A stretch of 64,000 bases of DNA, taken from positions 210 to 64,209 of the forward strand of contig JAAANZ010000023.1 of NCBI GenBank assembly GCA_009909065.1. Direction: 5' to 3'. The notes under the pieces were generated by a model. The model saw only the letters and a program-made list of their open reading frames with translations, searched no databases and was not told where the DNA came from. This DNA is from Alphaproteobacteria bacterium. GTDB taxonomy: Bacteria; Pseudomonadota; Alphaproteobacteria; Caulobacterales; Hyphomonadaceae. Shown piece by piece: positions 15,945-30,850 of this stretch. Each line of letters begins with the position of its first letter. Within the stretch, counting starts at the first letter, position 1. The translations under genes were made by a program, and so were the position numbers.

Positions 15945-15970
15945 TGGTGTGTTTCCCGGCAGGCCGGCCA

Positions 15971-17284: not shown

Positions 17285-17323
17285 CGGGCCCCTCCCTGCT
17301 TGAGGGCTCCCTAATACGGTCCA

Positions 17324-17339
17324 ACTGGTCTAGTCCAGT
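17324..17339. promoter_or_regulatory. putative HutC/PhnF-type GntR operator (ACTGGTCTAGTCCAGT)
   Basis: A 16-bp near-palindrome embedded in a perfect 9-bp inverted repeat, TCCAACTGG-N6-CCAGTTGGA (17320..17343), 40 nt upstream of the permease start. It closely resembles the GGTCTAGACC-type operators of HutC-subfamily regulators. Confidence 0.55.
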
Positions 17340-17655
17340 TGGAAGTTTGAATGTCATCAAAATTTCAAACGCACTCAGCCGCGCTGATCCGGCGCGAGCT
17401 GCACGCCTTTCCGGCTCTCGGCGGCCGCCGGACATCTCCCGGCGCCAGCGGCTCGCGGCCCGGAACGATTCTTGAGCGCAGCCGGAAAGCGGCCGGACCG
17501 GGCTGGCCATGCCGCTGCGACGTCTTGTCGGTTTTTGATGATGCGGAAATCAAAAAGCACAAAGTATCCAATATTCGACAATACCAGCGCGGTTCAGGGC
17601 TTGTTAACCGAAATCGTCACATCTGGGGCCATCAATGCTGACCAGAGGTGCCCCA

Positions 17656-18132
17656 ATGATTCGCGCTGCCCTATTTGCCCTTTCACTGACCACGGCGTTC
17701 GTCGCTCCCGTCCACGCGTCCGGGCTGACGGCCGAACAGTCCGTCCTGAAAATCGTCGAAACTGTCGACGAATCCGGCGAGACGGTGACAAATCTCGTCC
17801 CGGCCGACAAGGTGGCGCCCGGTGACACGGTTGTCTATGCTCTGGAATATGCCAATGGCGCGAGCGACCCGGCCGACAATGTGAAGCTGACCATGCCCGT
17901 CCCCGCAGAGGTGAGCTATCTCGAGAACTCGGCCACGACGGATGGCGTTTCGGTCTCTTTCTCGGCCGATGGCGGAGAGCGGTTCGCCAGCCGCGGAGAT
18001 CTGACCGTCAGCGTTGACGGCGAGCCGCGCGAGGCCCTGTCCGGCGACATCACGCATGTCCGCTGGGTGTTTGAAGAGCCGATCGCCGCCGGCGCCACCG
18101 GAAAGGTCTCTTACAGGGCCGTCCTCGACTGA
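17656..18132 (+). CDS. small secreted single-DUF11-domain protein (locus gene A)
   Basis: Signal peptide MIRAALFALSLTTAFVAPVHA. The mature ~135 aa carries the DUF11 'conserved repeat' signature (PGDTVVYALEYANGASDPADNVKLTMPVPAEV...GATGKVSYRAVL). Alternative start is ATG 17635 (track). Confidence 0.8.
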   Translation: MIRAALFALSLTTAFVAPVHASGLTAEQSVLKIVETVDESGETVTNLVPADKVAPGDTVVYALEYANGASDPADNVKLTMPVPAEVSYLENSATTDGVSVSFSADGGERFASRGDLTVSVDGEPREALSGDITHVRWVFEEPIAAGATGKVSYRAVLD

Positions 18133-18165
18133 CGGCAGGTCCACAGCCAGAAATGCCTCCCAGGA

Positions 18166-18198
18166 ACGGCCGGATTCGCAATCCGGCCGTAACCTTTT
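18166..18198 (+). terminator. stem-loop with short T-tract after gene A
   Basis: ACGGCCGGAT-tcgca-ATCCGGCCGT (10-bp perfect stem) followed by AACCTTTTG. It lies 34 nt after the gene A stop. Confidence 0.6.
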
Positions 18199-18345
18199 GA
18201 GAAGTATTTGAACGTATCTGAATACACATTCAGAAAAAAGATCGAGAATCACAGCCCAATATTATATTTCACCTTGGCGGTTTAGCCCGGAATTAAGATT
18301 TCTCGCCGATTCTCCGACGGGTCCAATGGAGAGAGGCGAATCCCT

Positions 18346-19596
18346 ATGAACTTGCTCAGAAACATCCCGAAACTGGCTCTGGCGGCCAGTGCCACCGCCC
18401 TGATGGCCGGCGCGGCCCATGCCGGCGGCACCGATGCCGGCACATCGGTGGAAAACACCTTCACCCTCGATTATGACGTCGATGGCACCCCGCAGGGCAC
18501 GATCACCAACGACTCGACTTACTCGGCAGGTGCCGGCGATCCGTCGCCGATTATCGACCCGGACGGTCCGACCGATTTCACCGTCGACCGCCTGATCGAC
18601 CTGACCGTCACGGCCAACAATTCGGGCCTCCTGGTCCCGCCGAATGCCGACGATCGCATCCTGGAATTCACGCTGACCAATACCGGCAACGACAATCAGG
18701 CCTATTCCTTCAGCATTGATGATGTCAGCGGCGATGATTTCGATGCCACTGGCCTCGAGATCACGTATTCCCGCGCGGCGGTCGACCTCAATGATGACGG
18801 CGACACATCTGACACCTGCGAAGCGGCGGTGACCGATGCGCCGCTGACCGTGACGACACTGGGCGCCGCGGCCGGATCGGCCGACGTGACCTGCGACATT
18901 CCGAAGGACGGCACGGCCACGATCAATATTTCCGGTGACATTCCGGATTCGCTTACAGAGGCGGACATCGACGACCTGATCCTTGTCGCCGAAACCCGTG
19001 ATCCGACAGTCTGGGCCACGGAAGGCAATCCGGCGACCCCGGCGGCGGTGACGGCTGAGGATGGGGACGCAACCAACACAATTGACGGCGTGGCCGAAAA
19101 TGTCTTCGCCGATGATTCCGGTTCGTCTTCCGAAGTGGCCAATGACGGCCTGCACTCGGCACCGTCGAGCTATGTCATCTCCTCACCGGACTTGACGGCT
19201 GAGAAGGATGTCTGGGTCCTGGCCACGGCCTCGGACGAGACCAACTGCGCCGCCGAGACGGTTCCCGGCTCCGAGCCGACGGACCAGTATTCTTCGCCGA
19301 CGGCTTGTGTGCTCTACACGATCACGACAACCAATACCGGCGAGGTGGCCGGCTCCGACGCCACCGGCATCGAGATCGTGGACGTGCTTCCCGAAGACGT
19401 CGCTTTCGTGAAAGCCGAGACGAGTGGTTTCGATAGCGCGCCCGCGCTGACCTTCAAGAAGGCCGACGGCACGACCGATTGCGATGGCGCGGCCGGCGAG
19501 ACCTGCACGGTCACGGTGAGTGGAGCCAATCTCTCGGCGACAGCCGGCGCCACGGACAGCCTCGCATATCTGCGCATCTGGGCGCTGGTCCGCTGA
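18346..19596 (+). CDS. secreted acidic multi-domain protein ending in a DUF11 domain (locus gene B)
   Basis: Signal peptide MNLLRNIPKLALAASATALMAGAAHA. The protein is Asp/Thr/Gly-rich, and its C-terminal module has the DUF11 pattern (CVLYTITTTNTGEVAGSDATGIEIVDVLPEDV...). SD GGAGAGAGG lies upstream. Confidence 0.8.
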   Translation: MNLLRNIPKLALAASATALMAGAAHAGGTDAGTSVENTFTLDYDVDGTPQGTITNDSTYSAGAGDPSPIIDPDGPTDFTVDRLIDLTVTANNSGLLVPPNADDRILEFTLTNTGNDNQAYSFSIDDVSGDDFDATGLEITYSRAAVDLNDDGDTSDTCEAAVTDAPLTVTTLGAAAGSADVTCDIPKDGTATINISGDIPDSLTEADIDDLILVAETRDPTVWATEGNPATPAAVTAEDGDATNTIDGVAENVFADDSGSSSEVANDGLHSAPSSYVISSPDLTAEKDVWVLATASDETNCAAETVPGSEPTDQYSSPTACVLYTITTTNTGEVAGSDATGIEIVDVLPEDVAFVKAETSGFDSAPALTFKKADGTTDCDGAAGETCTVTVSGANLSATAGATDSLAYLRIWALVR

Positions 19597-19635
19597 ACCG
19601 AGAAGGGCCCTTTCAAGGCCCATGGTGACATCCCG

Positions 19636-19673: not shown

Positions 19674-19815
19674 CCGGAGATGGGTGAAATTCAACAGATC
19701 GGCAGGACCTGATTTTAACCATTCTCCATTACTCTCAAGATCGAGAGGCAATAAAGAGCAAGTATTGCCAAAATAAAACGGCACGACACACCAAAAGGTG
19801 GCGGCCAGGAATGTG

Positions 19816-22800
19816 ATGGTTGGTGTAATGGCTTTTTTCAAGAAGTCGACAAGAGCGGTATGCGCGTTTTTCGGCGCACTGATGGCCGGGGCTCTCTCAG
19901 TCGGGGCGACGACGCCGCTGGGCGAACAGGTGACCAATATCGCCCAGGTCACCTATGAGCATTCAAGCGGTCCGCTGAGCATGGACACGAATGCGGCCGA
20001 TTTCACCGTCGTTGCGCGCCCCACGCCGTCGACGGTCGAATTCTTTCGCTATGCCCCGAACGCCAGCGATCGTTTCACCACGCGCATCCATGGCAGCGAC
20101 TACAGCCCCACGGGCGAAGGCCCCGACGCCGAGTTCGTGGCGATCGGCCCGCCGGTCACGATGGGCGGAACCGAGCTGGATTTTTCCGGCGAGGTGCCAC
20201 TGATCCCGGCCGAAACCTATTTCTCCGGCGAGCTGATGGTCGTGCGTGTGATCGACAAGGGCCAGAATGGCGACCCGGAGCGCATCGAGACCCTGACCAC
20301 CATGATCACGACCGATGGCAGCGACCAGATCTGCCTGAGGCTTTATGAGAGCGGCACGGATACGGGGCATTTCTATGGCTATATGCCGAGCACGGCCGAG
20401 CCCACCGCCGCCAATGATGCCAGGATCACCGCGCCGAAGGACAGCCAGCTGACAGCGACATATGTCGATGTCTTCGACTCGACGGAAGTGTCCATCGATA
20501 CGGCCCTCGTCGATCCCTTTGGCCGGCTTTTCGATTCGCTGACGGGTGAATTCATCGATGGGGCGCAAGTCACGATCGTCGAGGATGAAACCGGCGCGCC
20601 CGCCGATGTCTATGGTGTCGATGGCGTGTCCGAATATCCCTCGACACTTGTCACGGGCGGAACGGTCACCGATGCCGGCGGATCGGTATATGATCTGGAT
20701 CCCGGCGAGTTCCTCTTCCCGCTGATGGCGCCCGGCGAATACCGCCTGATCATCGAGCCGCCGGAAGGCTATGTCTATCCGTCCGGCTTCCCGGCCGACC
20801 AGTTCGGATCGCTGGAAAACGCGCCCTTCGAAATCATCGACGGCTCTTACGGGCGCAGCTTCACGGTCAGCGCAACAGGCCCGCTGAATTTCGACGTGCC
20901 CCTCGACACGACGCGCGGCCTGACGGTCACCAAGCGGTCCGGCCAGACACAGGCCGCGATCGGCGATTTCGTGTCCTACTCGGTGACGGCCGAGAACCGT
21001 TCCGACACCGCCCTTCCGATGATTGTTCGCGATGAGCTGCCGCGCGGGCTGCGTTATGAAGCTGGCTCGGCCGAGATTGAAGGCGCCGATACAGAGACGG
21101 CCGAGATTTCGGAAAATGGCCGCACACTGACATTCGATGCCGGGCTGATCGCGCCGGGCACCAAGCGCACGCTGAATTATGTCGCGGCCGTCGGAGCCGG
21201 CACGCCGCCGGGAACGGCGGTCAACAGCGCAGCCGCTGTCAATCCGCTTGGCCGCTCGATCTCGAACACGGCCGAAGCGGCCATCGAGATCCGCGAGGAT
21301 TTCCTGCGCTCGGAACTGACCCTCGTCGGCCGCGTCACCGAGGATGCCTGCCAGGCCGACCAGGACTGGGCGCGCGATATCGCGGACGGGTCCGGAGTGG
21401 CGGGCGTCCGGCTCTATCTGGAGACCGGTGAATATGTCGTCACGGACGAGGACGGGCTGTTCCATTTCGAGGGTGTCGAGGCGCGCACGCATGTGCTCCA
21501 GCTCGACCGCGAGACCCTGCCAGACGGGCTTGAGCCGGTCGTGTGCGAGGAAAATACCCGCTATGCCGGTTCAGCCTATTCGAAATTCATCGATGCCGAA
21601 GGCGGCACGGTCTGGCGCGCCAATTTCTACCTCACCCGAACCGAGGAGCAGAGCGCCGAGAAGGCGGAGGAATACTTCGACGATGCGGTCGAATACAGGA
21701 AATTCGATCAGGACTGGCTGGACGCTCAGTCGGCTGATATCGAATGGGTCTATCCCGACACGACGCGAACCCCGTCGCACCAGAGTGTCAATCTGGGGAT
21801 CAAGACACCTTTCCGCGCCTCGGTGTCCCTGAAGGTGAACGGCCGGCCGGTGCCCGCCACGAATGTGCAGTCGCGCCTGACCTCGGCTGACCGCAGCGCC
21901 GACCTTCATCGCTGGCGCGGCGTGGATATCAACCGTGGCCGGAACCGGTTCGTGGCGACGATACGCCAGGCCGACGGAACCGAAACAACGCTCGAGCGCA
22001 CCATCTGGTTTGTCGATGAGGCCCAGCGCGCGCGCCTCGTTGATGACCAGTCCGTGCTGGTCGCCGACGGGCGAACCCGTCCGGTCGTCGCGGTCCGCCT
22101 GGAGGATGCCGAGGGCCATGCCGTCCATGCCGGGCGTGTCGTCGATGTCGATGTGGCCGATCCCTATCGCCTGGTGGCCGATGCGCGCCGTGAAGAGCGC
22201 AACCCGGTCGCCACCAACACGATCGAGGTGTCCGGTGTGCATGTCGATCCCGATGGTATCGCCCGGATCGAGCTCGAACCGACTCTGGTGACGGGGCGTG
22301 TGCGGGTGCGTGTGCCCCTGAAGGACGGGCGCCATGAGGATATCACGGCTTATCTTCGCCCGGAAAAGCGCGACTGGATCGTCGTTGGCCTGGCCGAGGG
22401 AGAAGCGGGGCTTCAGGAAATTGACGGCCCGGGATCCTTCAGTGCCGAGGAGACCCTGACCGATGGCCGGCTGGCCTTCTTCGCCAAGGGCATGATCCGC
22501 GGCGACTGGCTGCTGACCCTGGCGGTGGATACGGCGAAACGCCGGGGGCGCGAGGATGATGCGCTGTTCGAGCAGATCAATCCGAATGCCTATTACACGC
22601 TGTATGGCGACCGCACCTGGCAGAACCATGACGCCGAAAGCCGCTATCCGGTCTATGTGAAGCTTGAAAAGGACACCGCGCAGATCCTCTTCGGCGATTT
22701 CAACACCGATATGAGCGATACCGAGCTGGGTCGCTACAACCGCCGCCTGTCGGGCCTTCGCGGTGTGTTCGAAGGCGAGAATGTCCGGGCGACCGGCTTT

Positions 22801-24885
22801 GCCGCCGAAACCAATCAGGGCTTTGTCAAGGACGAGTTCGCCGCCGACGGCACGTCCGGCCCCTATCGTCTCTCGACAACGCCGATCGTGCGCAACTCGG
22901 AGGTTATCACGGTGGAGACCCGTGAAAGGCTGCGACCGGACAAGGTGGTGAGCGTGCGCACGCTGACCCGGTATGTCGACTACGAGATCGACTACGAAAC
23001 AGGCGAGCTCCTGTTCCGCGCGCCGATAAATGCCACGGATACGCAGTTCAATGAGAATGTCATTGTCGCCGACTATGAGACGTTCAGCGATACCGAACGC
23101 AACACGACCTATGGCGGACGCGTGGCCGTGCGCACCGATGACAAGCGGCTTGAAGTCGGCCTCAGCCATGTCCACGAGGAAGGCCGCGCCAACCAGCCGG
23201 GTTCGCAATCGGAGGTGACGACCGTCGATGCGACCGCCCGGGTCAGCGACAATACGGAGCTGCGCGCGGAAGCGGCCCGCTCGGAACGAAGGCCCGGCCC
23301 GGATGGCGAGGCCAGCCAGTCCGCCGATGCCTATCTGCTCGAGGCGATCCATCAGGGTGAGGCGGTCACCGTCACCGGTTATGTCCGCGAGGAGCAGGCC
23401 GGCTTCGGTGTCGGCCAGACCGGATCCAACACCAACGGCATCCGCCGGTATGGGTTGCAGGGCAGCGCACTTGTCGCGGAGATCAACAATATGGAGACCG
23501 GCGAACGCGCCACGCGCACGCTGACGGCGCAGGCCTATCGCGAGGAGGCCCTTGGCCGCGATGAGGTGCGCACGGTCGGCGAACTCGGCGTGCAGCATAC
23601 CGGCCAGCTGACGACCCTTGGCGCGGGTCTGCGCGCGGTTGACGAGGCGCTCGATACCGGGCCACGCGAATCACTTCAGGCCACGGCCAATGCCTCACGC
23701 GCCTTCCCCGAAATCGGCCTGACCGTGACGGCCGCGCATGAACAGCCGCTGGGCGATGATAATGCGAATGAAGCCAGCCTCTTCCCGAGGCGCACCCTCC
23801 TGGGCGCCGACAAGCTGCTGACCCAGCGTGCGACGCTGAACCTGCGCCACGAGATCATCGACGGGGCAAATGCTTCGGGCCGGAACACGACAGCTGGCAT
23901 CTCCTATGTCCCCTGGACGGGTGGGCGTGTGACCACCTCGCTCAACGATATTACCCAGGACTCCGCCCGCCGCCTGTCAGCCACGGTTGGTGTCGACCAG
24001 ACCTTCCAGATCGATGAGCGCTGGAGCGCCAGTCTCGGCATGGCGGATCGCTCGCAGATCGATGGCGGGGAAGCTCCGCGCGATCCGCTGGCCGATGATG
24101 CGGTCTCCCCGCTGGCGGAGGGCGAGCGCAGCCGCCTGACGCTGGATGAAAGCTTTACATCCGCTTATGCAGGTCTGGGTTATCGCGACCTGGCCACAAC
24201 CGGCTCGCTGCGTGGGGAATATCGCGAAACACCCCAGTCCCAGCGCTGGGCGGTGATCCTCGGCGGTGCGCGCGAGGCTTCGGAAACGCTGTCCTTTGCG
24301 GGAACGGGCCGTTACCAGAGCGAAACCTCGGAGTTTGCCGGCCAGAGACGGGCCATCGACATGCGCCTCGGCACCGCCTGGCGTCCGCGCGGGGAAGGTC
24401 CGATCGTGTTCAATCGCCTGGACTTCAAACAGGAAGAGGTCGTCGGCGATTTCTCGACATGGAAGCTGGTCAACAATCTCGGCGCGAACACGATGCTCTC
24501 GGACGCGACGCAGATGTCCATCTTCAACGGCATCAAATATACCGACACCAGCCTGGCCGGCGCCGATGTCGAGGGCTGGGCCTGGCTGCTCGGCGGCGAG
24601 CTGCGCCACGACATCACGCCGCGGATCGATCTGGGCCTGCATGGCTCCGTGATGCACACCACCGCGACCGGCACGACGGAATTGTCCGCGGGCCCCAGCA
24701 TCGGTTTCTCGCCGAAGGACAATGTCTGGGCGTCGGTGGGCTACAATTTCATCGGTTTCCGCGACGAGGACTTCGAGGCGGCGGAATACACCCGCAACGG
24801 TCTCTACGTGAAGCTCCGGTTCAAGTTCGATGAAGAGAGCCTGGATGGACTGCTTGAGCGAATCTCGCCGCGCGGGCGTCACTGA
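19816..24885 (+). CDS. giant secreted protein: DUF11 + Cna-B/SdrD-B-like + Big_1-like modules with a large C-terminal beta-barrel-like region (locus gene C)
   Basis: The signal peptide region is ..MAFFKKSTRAVCAFFGALMAGALSVGA. Cna-B-like blocks are (GEYRLIIEPPEGYVYPSGF; VAGVRLYLETGEYVVTDEDGLFHFEGVEARTHVLQL). The DUF11 block is (GDFVSYSVTAENRSDTALPMIVRDELPRGL). The Big_1-like block is (SVLVADGRTRPVVAVRLEDAEGHAV). The last ~600-700 aa show alternating hydrophobic strands ending GLYVKLRFKF plus a 20-aa tail. Possible starts are GTG 19798, ATG 19816 and ATG 19828. Confidence 0.8.
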   Translation: MVGVMAFFKKSTRAVCAFFGALMAGALSVGATTPLGEQVTNIAQVTYEHSSGPLSMDTNAADFTVVARPTPSTVEFFRYAPNASDRFTTRIHGSDYSPTGEGPDAEFVAIGPPVTMGGTELDFSGEVPLIPAETYFSGELMVVRVIDKGQNGDPERIETLTTMITTDGSDQICLRLYESGTDTGHFYGYMPSTAEPTAANDARITAPKDSQLTATYVDVFDSTEVSIDTALVDPFGRLFDSLTGEFIDGAQVTIVEDETGAPADVYGVDGVSEYPSTLVTGGTVTDAGGSVYDLDPGEFLFPLMAPGEYRLIIEPPEGYVYPSGFPADQFGSLENAPFEIIDGSYGRSFTVSATGPLNFDVPLDTTRGLTVTKRSGQTQAAIGDFVSYSVTAENRSDTALPMIVRDELPRGLRYEAGSAEIEGADTETAEISENGRTLTFDAGLIAPGTKRTLNYVAAVGAGTPPGTAVNSAAAVNPLGRSISNTAEAAIEIREDFLRSELTLVGRVTEDACQADQDWARDIADGSGVAGVRLYLETGEYVVTDEDGLFHFEGVEARTHVLQLDRETLPDGLEPVVCEENTRYAGSAYSKFIDAEGGTVWRANFYLTRTEEQSAEKAEEYFDDAVEYRKFDQDWLDAQSADIEWVYPDTTRTPSHQSVNLGIKTPFRASVSLKVNGRPVPATNVQSRLTSADRSADLHRWRGVDINRGRNRFVATIRQADGTETTLERTIWFVDEAQRARLVDDQSVLVADGRTRPVVAVRLEDAEGHAVHAGRVVDVDVADPYRLVADARREERNPVATNTIEVSGVHVDPDGIARIELEPTLVTGRVRVRVPLKDGRHEDITAYLRPEKRDWIVVGLAEGEAGLQEIDGPGSFSAEETLTDGRLAFFAKGMIRGDWLLTLAVDTAKRRGREDDALFEQINPNAYYTLYGDRTWQNHDAESRYPVYVKLEKDTAQILFGDFNTDMSDTELGRYNRRLSGLRGVFEGENVRATGFAAETNQGFVKDEFAADGTSGPYRLSTTPIVRNSEVITVETRERLRPDKVVSVRTLTRYVDYEIDYETGELLFRAPINATDTQFNENVIVADYETFSDTERNTTYGGRVAVRTDDKRLEVGLSHVHEEGRANQPGSQSEVTTVDATARVSDNTELRAEAARSERRPGPDGEASQSADAYLLEAIHQGEAVTVTGYVREEQAGFGVGQTGSNTNGIRRYGLQGSALVAEINNMETGERATRTLTAQAYREEALGRDEVRTVGELGVQHTGQLTTLGAGLRAVDEALDTGPRESLQATANASRAFPEIGLTVTAAHEQPLGDDNANEASLFPRRTLLGADKLLTQRATLNLRHEIIDGANASGRNTTAGISYVPWTGGRVTTSLNDITQDSARRLSATVGVDQTFQIDERWSASLGMADRSQIDGGEAPRDPLADDAVSPLAEGERSRLTLDESFTSAYAGLGYRDLATTGSLRGEYRETPQSQRWAVILGGAREASETLSFAGTGRYQSETSEFAGQRRAIDMRLGTAWRPRGEGPIVFNRLDFKQEEVVGDFSTWKLVNNLGANTMLSDATQMSIFNGIKYTDTSLAGADVEGWAWLLGGELRHDITPRIDLGLHGSVMHTTATGTTELSAGPSIGFSPKDNVWASVGYNFIGFRDEDFEAAEYTRNGLYVKLRFKFDEESLDGLLERISPRGRH

Positions 24886-24974
24886 CGGCTTTGGCAAAGA
24901 CGGGCGCCTTTAGTCTTGGATTTCAATCGCGACCAAACGTCCTTTCTCGGCTTGGTCATCACGCGAGGCAGGAA

Positions 24975-27900
24975 ATGAATCAGCGGAACACCAACAAGAT
25001 CCAGACGGCCTGGCGGCTGCTTGTGCTGTCTCTGGCAGCGATGGGCTTCGCCGGCGCGGCCATGGTGGCCACGGCGCAGACATGCGGGACCGGATCGTCA
25101 GCGACGGGTTCGGGCTTTGCGTCGTCCGGCTCTGGCAATTTCACCGAGGAGGTCTTCTGGCTCGACTGGAACTGCCCCGGCCACTCAACTTTCGCGCCCG
25201 GATCGACCGTCACACGCAGCTGGGATGTGGGCGACGGCACGATTGTTTCGGCCACGATCACGGGTGCGACATTCTCCATTCAACCCTATGATACCGGTTC
25301 CTATTTCGAGGACACGCTGCCAAGCCTCTATGGCGGACTGAACCCCCTCGGGCTGCAAGGCGCGGTCGATGGACAGGATCCGCAATTCGACATCAGCTTC
25401 AGCGCCACCCATAATGGCGACCCGATCGATGTCGATCTTGTCGTCGCGGACGCCGAGACGACGTCGCCCGGCGAAAGCATTGTCGTGAACACGAGCGGCG
25501 GTGCCTTTACCTTGTTGGAGCAATCGGGCGGCATCTCCGTGGCCGGTGCCGGCACCCAGACAGCAACGTTCTCCCATGGCGGCAGCGCCGGAACCGCGCT
25601 TCTGGAGTCCAGCGGCAGCCCGACCTTGTCGACCACGCTGAACCAGGGCGGCCGGCAGGCCGTTGCCTTCGGCGTGCGCTTCAGGAGAGACTTCTCCGAT
25701 GCACCGACAGCCGGCTATGGCGGCGCAAACCACCGCCAGAAGGGAAACTGGCGTCTCGGCGCCACGCTCACCACCGAGACGGCGGATTACAATGATCCGA
25801 ATGCGGCGGGGGACGCCGATGACGGCGTGACTTTCCCGACGCTCACTCAGGGGCAGAGCGCGACCCTCCCGGTGAGCGTGACCCAGCCGAGTGGCAATCA
25901 GGGTTATCTCCAGGCCTGGATCGACTGGAACGGCGACGGCGACTTTGCCGATGCCGGCGAGCAGGTTGCGAGCGACCTGCAAAGCGCGAGCGCAGGAACG
26001 AGCACGATCAGCGTGCCGGTCACTGTGCCTGCCACGGCAACCACCAGCCCCACCTTCGTCCGGTTCCGCTGGTCGTCGACGCAGGGCCTCGATAGCACCA
26101 CCGCCGCGCCCGATGGCGAGGTGGAGGATTATCAGGTGACGGTGCAGGCGTCGCCAACACCCAACTTCACCACAGACGACTCCCTCGGCAATGCCTGTGT
26201 GGCAAGCGGTGGCGTTCTAGGCACGACGAATTTCTTCACCGACCTCGATGGGGGCACGTTTGGAACGGGCTCCGGTGCGGCTGACGAAATACCGACAACC
26301 AACCCCTATGCCGCACAGATTTCCGGCGGCACCTATCGCAACACCCTCACAGGGTTCCAGCATGGTGATTACACCATCATCTCGAACAACCAGACGCCCC
26401 GCAATTCCTACCAGTATGGCAACGGGATCTTTGATCCTGTGAACGGCTTCACGGGCCGCTTCTTTATCTCTGATCCGAATATGAGCGCGCCGGCCTTCAC
26501 AAGCACGCTCAATGGTCTCGTTCCAGGTGAGAGCTATGAGCTCTCTTTCTGGGCCGCCGATTCGGAGACCGGAACCGGCGCAAAGCAGCGGATTGGGATA
26601 TTCGTTGATGGCGTGGAAGTATATAATACAGGATTCATTGCCAACCCGCCTTCGGGAATGGTCTGGCGTAAGTATTCATTCGTCTATGTGCACCCGACCG
26701 CTGCGTCAAGCGCAAACATTCAGATACGGGCGCTGGAGACGGGTTCGGCTGGTCGCGATATATTTTTCGACGAAATCCGGCTGTTTGAATGTAACTCACC
26801 TGCCGATTTTGGCGATGCACCGTCCACTGGCACCAGCTATGGCGAGCCACAGCACAGGATCGTGACAGGTCTTCAGCTCGGTGCTGCCGTGACCGATGAA
26901 ACGGTCGGTTATGACGATGCGAACGCCGCAGGGGACGCTGATGATGGCGTGACTTTCCCGACGCTCACTCAGGGGCAGAGCGCGACCATTCCAGTGAGCG
27001 TGACGCAAGCGAGCGGCAATCAGGGTTATCTGCAGGCCTGGATCGACTGGAACGGCGACGGCGACTTTGCCGATGCCGGCGAGCAGGTCGCAACCGACCT
27101 GCAGAGCGCGACCGCAGGAACGAGCACGATCAGTGTGCCGGTCACTGTGCCCGCCACGGCAACCACCAGCCCCACCTTCGCCCGATTCCGCTGGTCCACC
27201 ACGGCCGGCCTCGACGCCACGGCCGCTGCGCCCGATGGCGAGGTGGAGGATTATCAGGTGACGGTGGCCCCGCCCCCTCCCCCACCATCGAGCGGCGTGA
27301 TCAATTATCCCAACTCAGGCAATGGGCTCTATCGCGGCAGCATCGGCCTGCTCGACTGGGCGGGCAGCGGTCTTGATGATGGTATTCGGGATGGCGATTC
27401 GGTCAGTTTCGCCCTGCCGGAATGCCGTGCCGGCACACTGACGGCGACCTTCAGCAATGTCACCAATCCGGCCAATGCGACGACTTATGTGCCGTCCGAT
27501 ATGAATACTTGGTCCGGGGCGCCCTTCCACAACGCTTATAACGGGCCAGGCAATGGCGAGGCACTCCACGGCGCCTTTGGTGCCAGCGCGTCCTTTCGAA
27601 TCGACTGGACCATGACGGTCAATGGTGTCGCGAGGAGCCCCGACATCTTTTTCTTCGATGCAGAGGCCAGTGATTCGGGACCAGAGGCTGTGAGCGCCAC
27701 CACAAATGGCGGTGTATGGGCGCTGGTCGAGAATATCGGAGGCGCCGGTTACACTGCCACCGGGATCGGAACTCAGTCCGTCACGATTGAGCAGTCTCAA
27801 TCACCGTCCAATACTCCTCTTTTGCTTTCCATGGCCACGAGCCGCACGGATATCGACATAAATGCAGATGGTGGGCTGCAGGCGGTCGGCTTCGGCGTTC

Positions 27901-29651
27901 TGCTGCCTTGCGACAGCGGCGATGCAGGTGGGATGCCGGATGCCGCTCACGCTTTCGAGCAGCGGCCGGCTTCCGGTTCCGGGCTCGAATTCACACCCGG
28001 CCAGCTGTATCTCGGCAGCGCGCCGCCGGATGCCGAGACTGGCAGCCAGGCCAATACGGGTGCCACGGGCGACGACGCCGATGCGCTCGGCGATGACGAG
28101 GACGGCGTGACGCTGCCGACACTGACGCAAGGGACGAGCTCGACCCTTCCGGTGAACGTGACCCAGGCGAGCGCGAACCAGGGCTATCTGCAGGCCTGGA
28201 TCGACTGGAATGGTGATGGCGATTTTGCCGATACCGGCGAACAGGTCGCTTCTGATGTCACGGATGGGGGCCTGGACGATCTCGACGGAAGTGCCAATGG
28301 CGTGATCGAGCTCGACCTTGCCACACCGGCTGGCGCGACTATCGGCCAGACGGTCTCGCGTTTCCGCTGGTCATCAGCGAGCGGACTTGGTCCTGATGGC
28401 GCGGCCGCTGACGGCGAAGTCGAGGACTATCCCGTCACCATTCAGGCGAACCCGCTGGCGGGGGCGACACCCTTTACCTGTGACAGTCGGCTGTGGCAGC
28501 TGGCGCGCAAAGACACCCAGCTCATCTCGATCTCGCTTTCCGGCACAACGGCAACCTTTACCGATACCGGGAGCCCGGCCGGTGGTGGGCGCAATGCCGG
28601 TTGGGGGTATAATGAGACCGACCAGCTGGCCTATGGCTTGTCCAATACCCGTATGTGGGCCGTGGACGGGGCCGGAACCTTCTATGATCTCGGCACTGTC
28701 GGCGGCCTGGGCAGCTATTCCGGGTCCAATGCGGGCGATGTCCTGCCTGATGGCACGATGTTGTTCAAGGCCGGTGGAGGCGGTAGCGTATTAGGTCGGA
28801 TAGACCTGACCCGCACACCTTACAGCCTCGAAAGCACGGTCACACTGACCGGCCCGGCCAGCGGCGCGAACTATATCGATTTTGCCTTTAATCCGGCGGA
28901 CGGAAATGTCTATTCCATCGATTCCTCAGCCGACCGGCTCTTCTATTTCAATCCGGATACTGGCGCGACAAGCTATTTTGGTCCCTCGACGCATTCCGGC
29001 AGTTTCGGAGCCCAGTGGTTCGACGAGGATGGCAACTTCTTCGCCTATGACAACAATACGAACGAAGTCTACCAGTTCGATGTCGGCACAAATGGTTCGG
29101 GAAGCGGAGCGGCGACCTATCTGGCGACCAGCAGTGCAGATGAGGGCGGTAGGAACGACGGATTCAGCTGCCGCGGGCCGTCGCCGCTCGGTTCGGCTGA
29201 GCTGGCTGCCTCGAAGACGATTGAGCTGTTCGATGGTGGCGGTACGGGCGATGTCTACGCACTGCCCGGTGAGGATGTGATCTATACGATCAATGTCAGC
29301 AATACCGGCAGCGGCCCGACCGATCTCGACAGCGTCGTCCTGATCGACCGGATGCCGCCTGAGGTCGAATTCTTCACCGGCGACATCGATACAGGCGGAC
29401 CGGACACGTATCCGGGAAGCGACCCTGTCGGCTTTCTGGATAATGGCTCGGGCCTGACCTTTAACTATGCCAGCGATGTGGGTTTTTCGGACCAGGCCAC
29501 GCAGCCTGCAGGCTTTTCAGCCTGCACCTATACGCCGACCGGGACCTATGACCCGGATGTGACCTATATCTGTTTCAATCCGAAGGGACAGATGCCCGCC
29601 GGCGACCCGGACCCGGAATTCTCGCTCGCCCTACGTGCGCGCATTCGTTGA
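24975..29651 (+). CDS. giant secreted multi-module adhesin-like protein with three GEVED modules and a C-terminal DUF11 domain (locus gene D)
   Basis: Signal peptide MNQRNTNKIQTAWRLLVLSLAAMGFAGAAMVATA. There are three copies of ..GYLQAWIDWNGDGDFAD.GEQVA...RFRWS....DGEVEDY.VT. Two paralogous ~230-aa modules precede GEVED copies 1 and 3. Also present are a jelly-roll/CBM-like block (ELSFWAADSE...IFFDEIRLFEC), a Gly/Asp/Tyr-rich propeller-like block (28.4-29.1 kb) and a terminal DUF11 (GEDVIYTINVSNTGSGPTDLDSVVLIDRMPPEV). The track start 24891 is probably too early. Confidence 0.8.
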   Translation: MNQRNTNKIQTAWRLLVLSLAAMGFAGAAMVATAQTCGTGSSATGSGFASSGSGNFTEEVFWLDWNCPGHSTFAPGSTVTRSWDVGDGTIVSATITGATFSIQPYDTGSYFEDTLPSLYGGLNPLGLQGAVDGQDPQFDISFSATHNGDPIDVDLVVADAETTSPGESIVVNTSGGAFTLLEQSGGISVAGAGTQTATFSHGGSAGTALLESSGSPTLSTTLNQGGRQAVAFGVRFRRDFSDAPTAGYGGANHRQKGNWRLGATLTTETADYNDPNAAGDADDGVTFPTLTQGQSATLPVSVTQPSGNQGYLQAWIDWNGDGDFADAGEQVASDLQSASAGTSTISVPVTVPATATTSPTFVRFRWSSTQGLDSTTAAPDGEVEDYQVTVQASPTPNFTTDDSLGNACVASGGVLGTTNFFTDLDGGTFGTGSGAADEIPTTNPYAAQISGGTYRNTLTGFQHGDYTIISNNQTPRNSYQYGNGIFDPVNGFTGRFFISDPNMSAPAFTSTLNGLVPGESYELSFWAADSETGTGAKQRIGIFVDGVEVYNTGFIANPPSGMVWRKYSFVYVHPTAASSANIQIRALETGSAGRDIFFDEIRLFECNSPADFGDAPSTGTSYGEPQHRIVTGLQLGAAVTDETVGYDDANAAGDADDGVTFPTLTQGQSATIPVSVTQASGNQGYLQAWIDWNGDGDFADAGEQVATDLQSATAGTSTISVPVTVPATATTSPTFARFRWSTTAGLDATAAAPDGEVEDYQVTVAPPPPPPSSGVINYPNSGNGLYRGSIGLLDWAGSGLDDGIRDGDSVSFALPECRAGTLTATFSNVTNPANATTYVPSDMNTWSGAPFHNAYNGPGNGEALHGAFGASASFRIDWTMTVNGVARSPDIFFFDAEASDSGPEAVSATTNGGVWALVENIGGAGYTATGIGTQSVTIEQSQSPSNTPLLLSMATSRTDIDINADGGLQAVGFGVLLPCDSGDAGGMPDAAHAFEQRPASGSGLEFTPGQLYLGSAPPDAETGSQANTGATGDDADALGDDEDGVTLPTLTQGTSSTLPVNVTQASANQGYLQAWIDWNGDGDFADTGEQVASDVTDGGLDDLDGSANGVIELDLATPAGATIGQTVSRFRWSSASGLGPDGAAADGEVEDYPVTIQANPLAGATPFTCDSRLWQLARKDTQLISISLSGTTATFTDTGSPAGGGRNAGWGYNETDQLAYGLSNTRMWAVDGAGTFYDLGTVGGLGSYSGSNAGDVLPDGTMLFKAGGGGSVLGRIDLTRTPYSLESTVTLTGPASGANYIDFAFNPADGNVYSIDSSADRLFYFNPDTGATSYFGPSTHSGSFGAQWFDEDGNFFAYDNNTNEVYQFDVGTNGSGSGAATYLATSSADEGGRNDGFSCRGPSPLGSAELAASKTIELFDGGGTGDVYALPGEDVIYTINVSNTGSGPTDLDSVVLIDRMPPEVEFFTGDIDTGGPDTYPGSDPVGFLDNGSGLTFNYASDVGFSDQATQPAGFSACTYTPTGTYDPDVTYICFNPKGQMPAGDPDPEFSLALRARIR
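25803..26144 (+). repeat. GEVED-module DNA repeat, copy 1
   Basis: Aligns base-for-base with 26925..27266 (offset 1122 nt). Perfect runs of 42 nt (ggcgtgactttcccgacgctcactcaggggcagagcgcgacc) and 56 nt (caggcctggatcgactggaacggcgacggcgactttgccgatgccggcgagcaggt) are shared. Confidence 0.9.
26925..27266 (+). repeat. GEVED-module DNA repeat, copy 2
   Basis: See copy 1. The near-identical antisense shadow ORFs 25904..26101 and 27026..27220 in the track independently show the duplication. Confidence 0.9.
28092..28446 (+). repeat. GEVED-module DNA repeat, copy 3 (diverged)
   Basis: It encodes the same protein motif (GYLQAWIDWNGDGDFADTGEQVA...RFRWSS...DGEVEDYPVT), but many synonymous and non-synonymous differences separate it from copies 1 and 2. 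Confidence 0.8.
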
Positions 29652-29709
29652 CAGGCGGCTGAAGAACGGACCCTTCGGCGATCCAATGGCCCGGACAGTC
29701 GTGCGACTC

Positions 29710-29824
29710 TCCATCCTTCGAGACGCGCTTCGCGCTCCTCAGGATGAGGTGAGTGCGTTGTTTCGAAGGCTCAAAACCCTCATCCTGAGGAGCGATCCGT
29801 CCAGGGATCGCGTCTCGAAGGATG
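29710..29824. repeat. long imperfect palindromic intergenic element (REP/MITE-like)
   Basis: CCATCCTTCGAGACGCG..GCTCCTCAGGATGAGG (29710..29748) pairs with CCTCATCCTGAGGAGC..CGCGTCTCGAAGGATGG (29777..29824). It lies between convergent gene D and xerD. Elements with this 'LILRS..RVSKDG'-type translation recur in alphaproteobacterial intergenic regions, as far as I recall. Confidence 0.6.
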
Positions 29825-29884
29825 GCGGCGCGATCATGCTTCCAGGTTCGCAAGAGCCAATTGCAGGAGTGTTTCAGCCGCCTG

Positions 29885-30826: not shown

Positions 30827-30850
30827 CGCACCGAAAGGGTTATGAAACCG

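What the first reader, a model, noticed from the sequence alone, without database searches (positions are those of the whole stretch)
17285..29884. Four-gene locus of Sec-signal DUF11 / Cna-B / GEVED proteins with a built-in giant beta-barrel and no known assembly partner: candidate undescribed surface-fibre or adhesin system
Seen in sequence: four co-directional genes, A (158 aa), B (416 aa), C (~1690 aa) and D (1558 aa), fill 17.6-29.7 kb. Each opens with a classical Sec signal peptide. None has a lipobox, an LPXTG sorting signal, RTX nonapeptides or a T9SS-type C-terminal domain. A, B and D each end in a DUF11-type Ig-like 'conserved repeat' domain. C joins DUF11, two Cna-B/SdrD-B-like modules and a Big_1-like module to a ~600-700-aa C-terminal region of amphipathic beta strands ending in ..LYVKLRFKF. 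D looks like an adhesive tip, with two paralogous ~230-aa modules, a jelly-roll/CBM-like module, three GEVED modules and a Gly/Asp/Tyr-rich propeller-like block. No space is left in the locus for a PapD-like chaperone, FimD-like usher, sortase, POTRA/TpsB partner or ABC/MFP/TolC set. Established knowledge: Cna-B, SpaA and DUF11-type Ig folds build sortase-linked pili in monoderms and S-layer or outer-membrane-complex proteins elsewhere. In a diderm such proteins need a dedicated outer-membrane route. Inference: C could be the outer-membrane pore or anchor (usher-like or autotransporter-like), with A, B and D as fibre subunits and tip. That would be an assembly logic distinct from chaperone-usher, type IV, type V, curli and sortase pili.
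Basis: partly seen in the sequence, partly recalled or inferred. Interest (0 to 1): 0.88.

Follow-up and report, generated by a model that had tools for sequence, protein, structure and literature searches.

The report
Uncharacterised outer-membrane fibre system, split pilin domains
Four adjacent genes in a marine Hyphomonadaceae genome belong to a widespread but undescribed envelope system, in which a giant outer-membrane barrel protein probably anchors, and perhaps exports, a surface fibre whose subunits appear to join by sharing the two halves of one domain.

Summary
A (165 aa), B (416), C (1695) and D (1558) are real co-directional Sec-signal genes carrying DUF11 (now called CLIPPER) domains. 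D carries adhesin modules. AlphaFold2 predicts a C-terminal beta-barrel of at least 32 strands in C. This barrel matches no Pfam or NCBIfam model, and no solved structure by sequence.

The locus is not a local oddity. The barrel module has 3,138 cluster representatives. The gene order (D)-X-A-B-C(-D) recurs in Alpha- and Gammaproteobacteria, Desulfobacterota and Nitrospirota. B and C form the core; A and D are frequent but optional. I found no homology to ushers or PapD chaperones, no sortase, and no published description.

New finding: A, B and D end right after strand 7 of a CLIPPER fold. B and every C-family protein begin, right after the signal peptide, with the missing strand 8-9 hairpin, which carries the isopeptide Asn. 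B's truncated domain keeps the Lys and Asp invariant.

Best model (about 0.5): a head-to-tail fibre D-(B)n-C built by strand complementation in trans, probably locked by Lys-Asn isopeptide bonds, with no sortase. Insertion of the hairpin in cis, the export route and the role of A remain untested.

The parts
17635..18132 (+). Gene A (165 aa; probable start Met8 at 17656). Signal peptide plus a single CLIPPER-like domain that ends after a strand-7-type motif (..ITHVRWVFEEPIAAGATGKVSYRAVLD*). It lacks the strand-1 Lys. Met (window) or Asn (other phyla) replaces the catalytic Asp. Candidate non-covalent cap or chaperone.
   Evidence: DUF11 25.3 bits, TIGR01451 32.4 bits. Family conserved to other phyla at E ~1e-46. 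Residue pattern. The C-terminal fragments of five of the six A proteins, from several phyla, map to strands 6-7 of a canonical model (the window's own A gave only a single-position, negative-score hit), with weak scores.
18346..19596 (+). Gene B (416 aa), the universal partner of C and candidate shaft subunit. Layout: signal peptide, N-terminal hairpin, one complete CLIPPER-like domain, one truncated CLIPPER domain.
   Evidence: AlphaFold2 pLDDT 92.5. Directly upstream of C in 64 of 67 loci.
18430..18519 (+). B N-terminal strand 8-9 hairpin (aa 29-58, AGTSVENTFTLDY..GTITN). Asn37 is invariant in 82 sequences. Proposed donor element.
   Evidence: The motif matches canonical strand 8, which carries the isopeptide Asn806 of PDB 9IFR. 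Strands 34-45 and 48-54 in the model. Hairpin fragments map to model positions 93-126.
18571..19191 (+). B domain 1 (aa 76-282). A complete nine-strand DUF11-like sandwich without the Lys/Asn pair.
19192..19593 (+). B C-terminal truncated CLIPPER domain (aa 283-416). Seven strands; Lys287 and Asp346 invariant; no conserved Asn; conserved Cys pairs. The protein stops after strand 7. Proposed acceptor.
   Evidence: The L089 B homologue aligns to canonical model positions 5-90 of 128 with one residue left over.
19798..24885 (+). Gene C (1695 aa; the start may be Met7 or Met11). Outer-membrane anchor and candidate translocon.
19915..20013 (+). C N-terminal orphan strand 8-9 hairpin (aa 40-72, LGEQVTNIAQVTY..DTNAADFTVVA), sitting directly before RPTPSTVEFFRYAP.
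   Evidence: The motif is present in 212 of 236 family members. Rosetta-stone fusions in P0455, P0483, P0452 and P0472. Concatenation test.
20014..21642 (+). C N-terminal stalk. It comprises a conserved domain (aa 73-240), a prealbumin/CnaB-like domain (~241-370), a complete CLIPPER domain with the triad Lys379/Asp412/Asn476 (375-500) and an SdrD_B/CarboxypepD_reg-like domain (~510-615).
21745..22362 (+). Two Ig-like (Big_1/invasin-like) domains just before the barrel (aa ~650-855). In most distant homologues an OmpA peptidoglycan-binding domain lies just upstream of this region.
   Evidence: pLDDT ~90..
22366..24885 (+). Conserved C-terminal barrel module (aa ~857-1695). It has 32 long antiparallel strands from aa 1086 to 1677, plus 8 earlier strands and a small beta insert at aa ~1020-1080 that may act as a plug. 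A beta-signal-like motif ..GLYVKLRFKF is followed by a short helical tail.
   Evidence: Family size. No Pfam, NCBIfam or PDB sequence match.
24975..29651 (+). Gene D (1558 aa from the ATG; the ORF opens at 24891). Candidate tip adhesin. Domains: CshA_NR2 x2, GEVED x3, a CBM-like module and a DUF6923 propeller-like block (28506-29174).
29190..29648 (+). D C-terminal CLIPPER-type domain (aa 1434-1586 of the ORF). It is the only part of D conserved across loci and phyla. It keeps the strand-1 Lys and the Asp, has a Cys pair, and ends ..AGDPDPEFSLALRARIR*. Proposed acceptor that fixes the adhesin to the fibre.
   Evidence: (E 1e-35 in L089, 4e-26 in L088).

Best explanation
The locus is one member of a large, undescribed envelope system of diderm bacteria. 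The system builds a surface fibre, or stalked adhesin, from CLIPPER (DUF11, CnaA-like) domains and anchors it in the outer membrane through protein C.

Proposed mechanism:
- All four proteins are exported by Sec and fold in the periplasm. The conserved Cys pairs fit this.
- A, B and D each end with a CLIPPER domain that stops after strand 7.
- B and C each start with the missing strand 8-9 hairpin.
- The hairpin of one protein inserts into the truncated domain of another (donor-strand complementation in trans). This gives a head-to-tail chain: tip adhesin D (acceptor only), then B repeated (donor and acceptor), then C (donor only).
- The acceptor supplies the Lys and the catalytic Asp, and the donor hairpin supplies the Asn. 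The junction therefore probably locks itself with a spontaneous Lys-Asn isopeptide bond, without sortase.
- A is an acceptor that lacks Lys and Asp. It probably binds hairpins reversibly, as a cap or chaperone, or serves as a minimal tip.
- C's giant barrel holds the base in the outer membrane and is the only candidate conduit for the folded subunits.

Shown here: the gene set and its conservation; the domain truncation and hairpin pattern; the residue conservation; the predicted barrel.

Inferred: pairing in trans, the covalent bond, passage through the barrel, and surface location.
For: Predicted barrel:
- AlphaFold2 on C aa 620-1695 gives pLDDT 78.6 and pTM 0.66, with 32 long strands plus 8 shorter ones.
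- Foldseek finds only large outer-membrane barrels: SlpA, TonB-dependent receptors, FimD, SprA, LptD and MtrB.
- The strands are amphipathic.

Family size and spread:
- The barrel module has 3,138 representatives at 50% identity, 1,170 of them at E<1e-30.
- Members occur in Gammaproteobacteria, Desulfosudis, Nitrospirota and Thermodesulfobacteriota.

Synteny:
- B lies directly upstream of C in 64 of 67 loci, A is present in 46 of 65, and a D-type gene in 22 of 65.
- The order X-A-B-C with D-type genes is seen in L083, L084, L086, L088 and L089.
- HMM confirmation: A at 1e-46, the D C-terminal domain at 1e-35.

Split domain:
- Alignment to PDB 9IFR places the isopeptide Asn806 in the 'G..vN.a.v' strand 8.
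- B has invariant N37, K287 and D346, and no conserved Asn in its C-terminal domain.
- The B model has only 7 strands in the C-terminal domain, plus N-terminal strands 34-45 and 48-54.
- The L089 B homologue ends at position 90 of a 128-position canonical model.
- The hairpin motif is present in 212 of 236 C-family proteins, always at the extreme N-terminus, even when cadherin repeats follow.
- The B HMM N-terminus hits C N-termini at E ~4e-6.
- Rosetta stone: Desulfobacterota C proteins carry a complete B-type CLIPPER domain (E 8e-9). Its strands 8-9 occupy exactly the place of the window C hairpin, before 'RTPxxxEFLRYAP'.
- Appending a hairpin extends the canonical-HMM alignment across the junction. 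Scores rise from 10.7 to 17.8 for B and from 17.9 to 27.0 for A. Reversed hairpins give no gain.
- A-type proteins lack the Lys and Asp in all lineages seen. D-type C-terminal domains keep both in the three lineages aligned (window/Hyphomonadaceae, L083, L086).

D carries adhesin modules.
Against: - No multimer prediction and no model coordinates were available. B's hairpin could therefore fill its own C-terminal domain in cis. The monomer model is confident at the N-terminus, and this may reflect exactly that.
- Statistics for the short hairpin are weak. hhalign gives E 0.019-0.14 and fragment scores run from -1.5 to 9 bits.
- For A and D, truncation after strand 7 rests on motif comparison. 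One hhalign alignment instead read D as a complete nine-strand domain, and MAFFT aligned the last strand to strand 9.
- Some X paralogues lack the hairpin Asn.
- A is absent from one clade.
- Nothing shows that the subunits pass through C's barrel. The barrel's closure and pore size could not be inspected.
- In most family members a periplasmic OmpA domain sits between the stalk and the barrel. This forces an unusual topology if the stalk is external.
Confidence: 0.5

Rival explanations
1. Stalked hetero-complex, not a polymer. B's hairpin closes its own C-terminal domain in cis, giving a stapled monomer. Only C's orphan hairpin pairs in trans, with A or with D. The result is one adhesin (D) fixed on one C stalk, with B as an accessory surface or periplasmic protein.
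For: AlphaFold2 places B's N-terminal segment confidently in a monomer (pLDDT 93-96, pTM 0.81). C has a donor but no acceptor. A and D have acceptors but no donor. D-type genes are single copy per locus.
Against: The universal pair is B+C, not D+C. In a linear two-domain arrangement B's 21-residue linker is too short to return the hairpin to its own C-terminal domain; this is an inference from canonical tandem topology. Paralogous X and B subunits, each with both donor and acceptor ends, recur, as expected for shaft and adaptor subunits.
Confidence: 0.2
2. C is a self-contained envelope protein. It could be an autotransporter-like fibrillar adhesin, or an outer-membrane-to-peptidoglycan tether analogous to Deinococcus SlpA or to OmpA. 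In this reading A, B and D are merely co-regulated secreted DUF11 proteins that reach the surface by another route, such as type II secretion.
For: The best Foldseek hits are the SlpA barrels. Most family members carry an OmpA peptidoglycan-binding domain. Some C proteins carry their own N-terminal cadherin repeats.
Against: This does not explain why B, X and C all start with a strand 8-9 hairpin while A, B, X and D all stop after strand 7. It does not explain the fused Rosetta-stone forms. It does not explain synteny held across four phyla or classes. The window's C lacks an OmpA domain.
Confidence: 0.15
3. Nutrient-capture machine in the style of Sus-like systems. C would be a large uptake channel. 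A, B and D would be surface glycan- or substrate-binding proteins.
For: C has a CarboxypepD_reg-like domain, as in SusC-type receptors, and D has a weak CBM_4_9 hit. The neighbouring genes include a TonB-dependent receptor and phosphatases.
Against: C has no Plug or TonB_dep_Rec domain. There are no lipoproteins. The flanking genes are not conserved between genomes. D's modules are adhesin-type (CshA_NR2, GEVED).
Confidence: 0.05
4. A highly divergent chaperone-usher pilus, with C as usher and A or B as chaperone.
For: The operon logic is similar: adhesin, small Ig-like proteins, a large barrel protein. FimD appears among the Foldseek hits. A small beta domain may be inserted early in the barrel.
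Against: No Usher or PapD Pfam hits. hhalign gives probability 1.3% for C against FimD and 0.2% for B against FimC. Foldseek TM-score is only 0.19. B is a tandem of CLIPPER-type sandwiches, not a PapD fold.
Confidence: 0.02

Closest known systems
Chaperone-usher pili (Fim, Pap, Csu)
   Same: Sec-exported Ig-like subunits with an incomplete fold, completed by an N-terminal element of the next subunit. The operon combines an adhesin that has a C-terminal 'pilin' domain, small subunits and one large outer-membrane barrel protein. No ATPase is involved. The polarity predicted here (incoming subunit donates, last-incorporated subunit accepts) matches chaperone-usher pili as I recall them; it was not tested.
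   Different: No PapD-like chaperone and no usher homology. Two strands are donated instead of one. The subunit fold is CnaA-like CLIPPER. A covalent lock is predicted. The barrel has at least 32 strands (against 24 for ushers, from my own knowledge), sits at the C-terminus of a 1,700-3,000 aa protein, and that protein itself carries a donor hairpin.
Sortase-assembled pili of Gram-positive bacteria (SpaA, Spy0128)
   Same: Tip, shaft and base logic. Pilins are built from CnaA/CnaB-type domains with Lys-Asn isopeptide chemistry and disulfides. Subunits are joined covalently.
   Different: No LPXTG, no sortase and no cell-wall anchoring (and the neighbourhood calls). The inter-subunit bond would be autocatalytic, formed inside a reconstituted domain. 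The anchor is an outer-membrane barrel.
Archaeal thread filaments (Saci_0406)
   Same: Head-to-tail donor-strand complementation by an N-terminal tail, plus proposed spontaneous inter-subunit isopeptide bonds. No known assembly machine (PMC9715654).
   Different: The thread subunit carries no Pfam domain (PMC9715654). Sequence relatedness to A-D was not tested here. The thread bond links Asn57 to the N-terminal amine of subunit n+2. Here a canonical Lys/Asp/Asn triad is split between neighbouring subunits, and an outer-membrane component exists.
CLIPPER/DUF11 fibrillar adhesins (PDB 9IFR, Acinetobacter silvestris B9T28_05395) and CshA-type adhesins
   Same: The same domain family, including the triad in C's internal domain. 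D has the CshA_NR2-GEVED head described for these adhesins (PMC12617251, PMC10952558).
   Different: Those are described as single polypeptides with tandem, complete, internally cross-linked domains and an 'OmpA-like anchor'. Here the stalk is divided among several genes at a fixed point in the fold, and a giant barrel absent from Pfam and NCBIfam is present.
SpyTag/SpyCatcher (engineered split CnaB2 domain)
   Same: A strand bearing one reactive residue docks into a truncated isopeptide domain bearing the partner and catalytic residues, and the two ligate spontaneously (reviewed in PMC6539128, listed).
   Different: That system is engineered and uses Lys-Asp in a CnaB fold. This would be a natural, operon-encoded Lys-Asn version in a CnaA-like fold, used for polymerisation.
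Type V secretion (autotransporters, intimin/invasin) and large barrels (SprA, LptD, SlpA)
   Same: An Ig-like 'passenger' and a barrel lie in one polypeptide. Big_1-like domains sit next to the barrel. Foldseek returns SprA, LptD and SlpA as the kind of barrel most alike. My own knowledge puts their strand counts at 26-36.
   Different: No Autotransporter, IAT_beta, POTRA or SprA family match. The barrel is about three times the size of a type V barrel. Partner subunits are encoded alongside.

Membership tests
Chaperone-usher pilus | PapD-like periplasmic chaperone encoded in the operon | tested here: not met
   No PapD_N or PapD_C hit in A-D or the flanking genes. hhalign of the B family against FimC gives probability 0.2%. 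The B model is a tandem of CLIPPER-type sandwiches.
Chaperone-usher pilus | Usher-family (PF00577) 24-strand barrel with plug, N-terminal and C-terminal domains | tested here: not met
   No Usher hit. hhalign of the C family against FimD gives probability 1.3%. Foldseek to FimD gives a TM-score of 0.15-0.19 only.
Chaperone-usher pilus | Subunits with an incomplete Ig fold completed by the N-terminal extension of the next subunit | tested here: inconclusive
   An analogous pattern was found: truncation after strand 7, with N-terminal strand 8-9 hairpins. Pairing in trans was not demonstrated.
Sortase-dependent pilus | LPXTG-type sorting signal on the pilins and a sortase gene in the locus | tested here: not met
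   No LP.TG in A-D. No sortase in the window locus or in nine related loci.
Sortase-dependent pilus | Pilins made of CnaA/CnaB domains with Lys/Asp(Glu)/Asn isopeptide triads | tested here: met
   C's internal domain has K379/D412/N476, aligned to K715/D748/N806 of PDB 9IFR. B has K287 and D346, plus N37 on the hairpin.
CLIPPER / DUF11 domain family (PF01345, TIGR01451) | Score at or above the curated cut-off | tested here: met
   A scores 25.3 against a cut-off of 24.6, C 35.8 and D 24.6. TIGR01451 gives A 32.4, C 28.8 and D 31.1 against a cut-off of 24. B is just below threshold (24.5 and 22.1).
Classical or inverse autotransporter (type Va / Ve) | 12-strand Autotransporter (PF03797) or IAT_beta barrel | tested here: not met
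   No such Pfam hit. The predicted barrel has at least 32 strands.
Two-partner secretion / Omp85 | POTRA domains plus a ShlB/Bac_surface_Ag barrel | tested here: not met
   No hits in C or its neighbours.
Type IX secretion | Por_Secre_tail C-terminal domain on the cargo and a SprA-family translocon | tested here: not met
   No T9SS C-terminal domain hit in A, B or D. SprA appears only as a generic Foldseek barrel hit with TM-score ~0.15.
OmpA-family peptidoglycan anchor | PF00691 OmpA domain | tested here: not met
   Absent from the window's C. Present in most distant family members, between the stalk and the barrel or after the barrel.
Donor-strand plus isopeptide filaments (archaeal thread type) | Inter-subunit covalent isopeptide bond | not testable with these tools
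   This needs mass spectrometry or a structure. Only the split conservation of Lys/Asp on the acceptor and Asn on the donor supports it.

The most novel reading that the evidence does not exclude
A previously unrecognised pilus and secretion pathway of diderm bacteria. Subunits polymerise by a natural SpyTag/SpyCatcher-like reaction. Each carries the last two strands of a CLIPPER domain at its N-terminus and a seven-strand acceptor with Lys and Asp at its C-terminus. The fibre is therefore covalent without sortase. It ends in, and is extruded through, a single-chain barrel of about 32-40 strands that is itself the last subunit (usher, terminator and anchor in one protein). A catalytically dead acceptor (A) acts as a strand-capping chaperone. 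If so, the same barrel, which is absent from Pfam and NCBIfam, might also be the missing outer-membrane component of some 'OmpA-anchored' CLIPPER fibrillar adhesins of Gram-negative bacteria. That last link was not tested.
Probability: 0.35. Interest if true: 0.93.

Novelty: categorically new. Interest (0 to 1): 0.82.

Why it matters
If the model is right, this would add a new way for diderm bacteria to build surface fibres.

- **Mechanism.** The fibre would be covalent and sortase-free, made by dividing an isopeptide domain between neighbouring subunits. It would be anchored, and possibly exported, by an outer-membrane barrel family with thousands of members that has no curated model and no solved relative.
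- **An open problem made testable.** It is not known how Gram-negative CLIPPER/DUF11 fibrillar adhesins, whose only annotated anchor is an OmpA domain, reach and hold the cell surface. This model offers a testable route.
- **Ecology.** It identifies likely adhesion machinery in abundant marine and sediment lineages: Hyphomonadaceae, Pseudomonadales-like Gammaproteobacteria, Desulfobacterota and Nitrospirota.
- **Biotechnology.** It offers natural orthogonal donor and acceptor pairs for protein ligation.
- **Even if the fibre model fails.** The conserved A-B-C module and the giant barrel remain a well-defined family of unknown function.

Tried and rejected
**Known secretion and pilus families**
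- Searched Pfam and NCBIfam for every known outer-membrane secretion or pilus family in A-D and the flanking genes. None was found.
- Ran profile comparisons of the C family against FimD and the B family against FimC. No homology.

**Structure and sequence searches**
- Sequence and profile searches of the PDB found only the CLIPPER domain 9IFR.
- Foldseek on the C model gave only generic large barrels with TM-scores around 0.2.
- Foldseek on the B model gave generic Ig tandems: integrin legs, antigen I/II, RbmA and CfaE. There was no functional lead.

**Mobile element idea**
- The adjacent XerC/D-type recombinase lies next to aroK-aroB and RNase P RNA in ordinary chromosomal context. I dropped this idea.

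**Literature**
- Nine searches found no description of the operon or the barrel.
- The 'tafi' paper was a false lead: the term matched DUF1102, not DUF11.

**Tests of the split-domain idea that gave weak or ambiguous results**
- hhalign of the 45-residue hairpins against a canonical domain is statistically weak and picks only one of the two motifs.
- Global MAFFT aligned the last strand of B-type proteins to strand 9.
- hhalign read D's C-terminal domain as complete.
- I resolved this in favour of truncation after strand 7. The basis is canonical repeats within the same proteins, the L089 B alignment that ends at model position 90, and the concatenation test. It remains a soft point for A and D.

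**Other dead ends**
- The 166-aa gene upstream of B in Hyphomonas sp. Mor2 is not an A homologue.
- The look-up of P0489 failed.
- One Pfam call exceeded the residue limit.

Full report
**Observation**

The four ORFs exist as described:
- A: 17635-18132, 165 aa.
- B: 18346-19596, 416 aa.
- C: 19798-24885, 1695 aa.
- D: ORF from 24891, probable ATG at 24975, stop at 29651; 1558 aa.

Each starts with a basic, then hydrophobic, then AxA-type N-terminus. This was read from the sequence, as no signal-peptide predictor was available. None has LPXTG, GGxGxD repeats or a lipobox.

Pfam and NCBIfam results:
- DUF11 is found in all four proteins, with B 0.1 bit below the cut-off.
- D has CshA_NR2 x2, GEVED x3, DUF6923, a weak CBM_4_9 hit and a C-terminal DUF11.
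- In C only DUF11 is significant. The CnaB/SdrD_B-type calls are sub-threshold here but recur in homologues.
- Nothing in Pfam, NCBIfam or PDB sequences covers C aa ~620-1695.

The flanking genes are a DUF5690 gene and a PhoD/PA14 phosphatase upstream, and a XerC/D-type recombinase followed by aroK-aroB downstream. There is no chaperone, usher, sortase, POTRA protein or ABC/MFP/TolC set.

DUF11 was renamed CLIPPER in 2025. It has been shown crystallographically (PDB 9IFR) to be a CnaA-like fold with a Lys715-Asn806 isopeptide bond, presumably catalysed by Asp748 (PMC12617251).

**The barrel**

I ran AlphaFold2 on C aa 620-1695 with 66 homologues. The model has pLDDT 78.6 and pTM 0.66. Its layout is:
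- two Ig-like domains at aa ~650-855;
- eight strands of 7-12 residues, interrupted by a poorly predicted loop with two short helices;
- a small beta insert at aa ~1020-1080;
- 32 long antiparallel strands from aa 1086 to 1677, joined by short turns.

The protein ends with ..GLYVKLRFKF and a short helical tail.

Foldseek against the PDB returns only large outer-membrane barrels: Deinococcus SlpA, TonB-dependent receptors, FimD, SprA, LptD and MtrB. Probability is 1.0 but TM-scores are only 0.1-0.27. The fold class is therefore clear, but no close relative is known.

The strands show the alternating hydrophobicity expected of a membrane barrel. I could not inspect coordinates, so closure, the exact strand count (32 to about 40) and a plug remain unverified.

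**How widespread it is**

- C has 461 word-indexed homologues of ~1,690 aa, named only 'hypothetical' or 'DUF11', from Hyphomonas, Henriciella and Hirschia.
- A scan of one genome per species found 282 loci in Hyphomonadaceae and related Caulobacterales, including Hellea, Robiginitomaculum, Litorimonas and Algimonas.
- An exhaustive HMMER search with the C-terminal 865 aa found 3,138 representatives at 50% identity, 1,170 of them at E<1e-30. In nearly all of the 150 representatives listed the module lies at the C-terminus of proteins of 1,600-3,000 aa.
- Named examples are 'OmpA family protein', 'cadherin domain-containing protein' or 'DUF11' proteins. They come from Gammaproteobacteria, Pseudomonadales, Thiohalomonas denitrificans, Desulfosudis oleivorans, Nitrospirota and Thermodesulfobacteriota.
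- Most of these carry an OmpA peptidoglycan-binding domain between the SdrD_B-like domain and the barrel, or after the barrel in P0190. Some add N-terminal cadherin repeats.

**Co-conservation**

Among the Hyphomonadaceae loci:
- B lies directly upstream of C in 64 of 67.
- A is detected in 46 of 65.
- A D-type gene follows C in 22 of 65.

Only D's last ~150 aa and its GEVED modules are conserved. One clade lacks A altogether.

Far outside the family the same order recurs:
- a gammaproteobacterial metagenome contig: 1230-aa CLIPPER protein, X, A, B, C;
- a Pseudomonadales MAG: X, A, B, C;
- D. oleivorans Hxd3: X, A, B, C, then a 612-aa CLIPPER protein;
- a Nitrospirota contig;
- a 5.7-Mb genome: lectin-CLIPPER protein, X, A, B, C.

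Support for these assignments:
- X is a paralogue of B.
- A is 33-38% identical between phyla.
- HMMs built from the alphaproteobacterial sequences recover A at 1e-46 and the D-type C-terminal domain at 1e-35 in loci fetched afterwards.

The module is therefore ancient. Its core is B+C, usually with A and X, plus a variable adhesin that always ends in the same domain.

**The split CLIPPER domain (new here)**

Aligning the C-family profile to 9IFR places the isopeptide Asn806 in the strand 'G..vN.a.v' (strand 8). C's internal domain has the full triad K379/D412/N476.

A set of canonical domains gives this consensus order:
- strand 1: 'l.v.K';
- strand 3: 'v.D.lP';
- strands 6-7: 'tW.iGnL.pG...tv.v.v.V';
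- strand 8: 'G..v.NtA.v';
- strand 9: 'sN.a...v.v'.

B consists of an N-terminal segment AGTSVENTFTLDY..GTITN, a complete nine-strand domain without Lys or Asn, and a C-terminal domain. That last domain has only seven strands in a high-confidence model (pLDDT 92.5).

In 82 B sequences N37, K287 and D346 are invariant. No Asn is conserved in the C-terminal domain. The best-aligned homologue (L089 B) ends one residue after canonical model position 90 of 128, at the end of strand 7.

A-type and D-type proteins end with the same strand 6-7 signature:
- A: THIRW..pl.pG.kG.VSFRA.l*
- D: I.iNPKG.f.G.sGgn.P.F.lr.Rv.v*

Canonical repeats inside the same proteins continue at that point with 'G..itNtA'.

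Conversely, B, X and 212 of 236 C-family proteins begin right after the signal peptide with 'pGT.I.NTA.a.Y...SN.v..tV'. The motif stays at the extreme N-terminus even when cadherin or other domains are inserted behind it.

Further support:
- The B HMM's N-terminal part hits C N-termini at E ~4e-6.
- A Rosetta-stone case exists. In Desulfobacterota C proteins (P0455, P0483, P0452, P0472) a complete B-type CLIPPER domain (E 8e-9) is present. Its strands 8-9 sit exactly where the window C hairpin sits, directly before 'RTPxxxEFLRYAP'.
- Appending a hairpin to B's or A's C-terminus extends the canonical-HMM alignment across the artificial junction and raises the score. Reversed hairpins do not.
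- Fragment mapping puts 9 of 10 hairpins on model positions 93-126, and five of the six A-type and three of the five B-type C-termini on positions 59-90, though with weak scores.
- The strand-1 Lys and the Asp are kept in B, in most X, and in D-type acceptors. In A-type proteins the Asp is replaced by Asn or Met and the Lys is not conserved, in every lineage seen.

**Mechanism proposed**

Donors are B, X and C. Acceptors are A, B, X and D. The only arrangement that satisfies every orphan element is a chain:
- D at the tip (acceptor only, carrying the adhesin modules);
- then X and B repeated (donor and acceptor);
- then C at the base (donor only, carrying the barrel).

The reactive triad is divided between partners, so each junction should form a Lys-Asn isopeptide bond by itself, as in the engineered SpyTag/SpyCatcher pair.

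A, a catalytically dead acceptor, would bind hairpins reversibly. It could be a periplasmic cap or chaperone that prevents premature polymerisation, or a default tip where D is absent.

Conserved Cys pairs imply folding in the periplasm. C's barrel is the only plausible operon-encoded conduit wide enough for folded Ig domains. A rough geometric estimate for 32 strands is a C-alpha radius near 29 A; this is my estimate, not a tool result.

If D is external and linked to C's N-terminus, and the OmpA domain of most homologues is periplasmic, the chain must cross the membrane through the barrel lumen between the stalk and the OmpA domain. All of this paragraph is inference.

**Weak points**

- Pairing in cis of B's own hairpin cannot be excluded. 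The monomer model is confident at the N-terminus and no coordinates or multimer runs were available. My geometric argument against cis pairing assumes a linear two-domain arrangement.
- Truncation of A and D rests on motif comparison. One hhalign run and one MAFFT run gave the alternative register.
- Statistics for the short hairpin are weak.
- Some X proteins lack the Asn.
- No data bear on localisation, filament formation or transport through C.

**Comparison with known systems**

- Chaperone-usher membership fails on the chaperone and on the usher. The logic, including the polarity of donation, is nevertheless closest to it.
- Sortase pili share the domain chemistry and the tip-shaft-base plan, but not the sorting signal or the enzyme.
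- Archaeal threads combine donor strands with proposed spontaneous isopeptides, in a subunit that carries no Pfam domain and with different residues (PMC9715654).
- Type V, two-partner and type IX membership all fail on their defining domains.
- Published CLIPPER and CshA adhesins are described as single chains with an OmpA-like anchor (PMC12617251, PMC10952558). The barrel found here is not mentioned there.
- Nine full-text searches found no description of this operon. The library omits most subscription-journal papers, so prior work cannot be ruled out.

**Verdict**

- The system meets none of the defining features tested for any known pilus or secretion class. I rate it categorically new, with about 0.5 confidence in the fibre-by-complementation model and about 0.35 in the full covalent self-ushering version.

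Noticed in passing
window 24891-29651: D lies in a lower-GC stretch (0.607-0.611, against 0.64-0.68 nearby) and fails a GC3>0.72 filter that the other genes pass. D-type genes are the variable cassette of the system. In other phyla they sit upstream (D-X-A-B-C) rather than downstream.
   Followed up: partly
window 14217-17284 (-): The 875-aa ORF 14217-16844 is a PhoD-like phosphatase with CHB_HEX_C and PA14 domains. Its 5' part overlaps the real DUF5690 gene (15971-17284, E 1e-154), so the long ORF start is an artefact.
   Followed up: partly
window 5401-14135: A cluster that looks like phosphorus or organophosphonate scavenging. It holds a Laminin_G_3-metallophosphoesterase, a TonB-dependent receptor with an N-terminal CarboxypepD_reg domain, an HD hydrolase, a DAO oxidoreductase, a HAD hydrolase and a GntR/UTRA regulator.
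   Followed up: no
window 29885-34375: A XerC/D-type recombinase lies next to aroK-aroB. Between them are two long overlapping ORFs (30842-32824 on + and 30851-32461 on -) with no Pfam hit. This looks like ordinary chromosomal context, not a mobile element.
   Followed up: partly
window 37157-37533 (-) and 5129-5218 (+): RNase P RNA (class A, 302 bits) and tRNA-Ser(GGA).
   Followed up: no
L083 16689-18614; L086 22864-26357: In the gammaproteobacterial locus a gingipain-type Peptidase_C25 gene directly follows the C homologue. In D. oleivorans, cohesin-like genes lie nearby. These are possible accessory factors, for example proteolytic maturation as in type V pili. I did not examine them.
   Followed up: no
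L001 7124-8383 and the related Henriciella/Hyphomonas loci L038-L065: In this clade no A-family gene is detected. In L001 an unrelated 166-aa protein with a faint IalB hit sits upstream of B, preceded by an ECF sigma factor and a Cupin_7 gene (my reading: a possible ChrR-type anti-sigma factor). This hints at envelope-stress regulation of the B-C pair.
   Followed up: partly
P0190 (2127 aa); P0209, P0253 and P0264 (~3000 aa): Architectural variants of C. In P0190 the OmpA domain follows the barrel instead of preceding it. In the ~3000-aa proteins several cadherin repeats are inserted right behind the N-terminal hairpin.
   Followed up: partly
L014 17270-18430: A second B-like gene (42% identity) lies about 4.6 kb downstream of C in one Hyphomonas MAG.
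   Followed up: no
L083 6803-7870; L086 7215-8255: The X paralogues in these two loci have the hairpin motif but lack its Asn (GTIISSQA, GSIIPSQA). This suggests non-covalent adaptor subunits.
   Followed up: no
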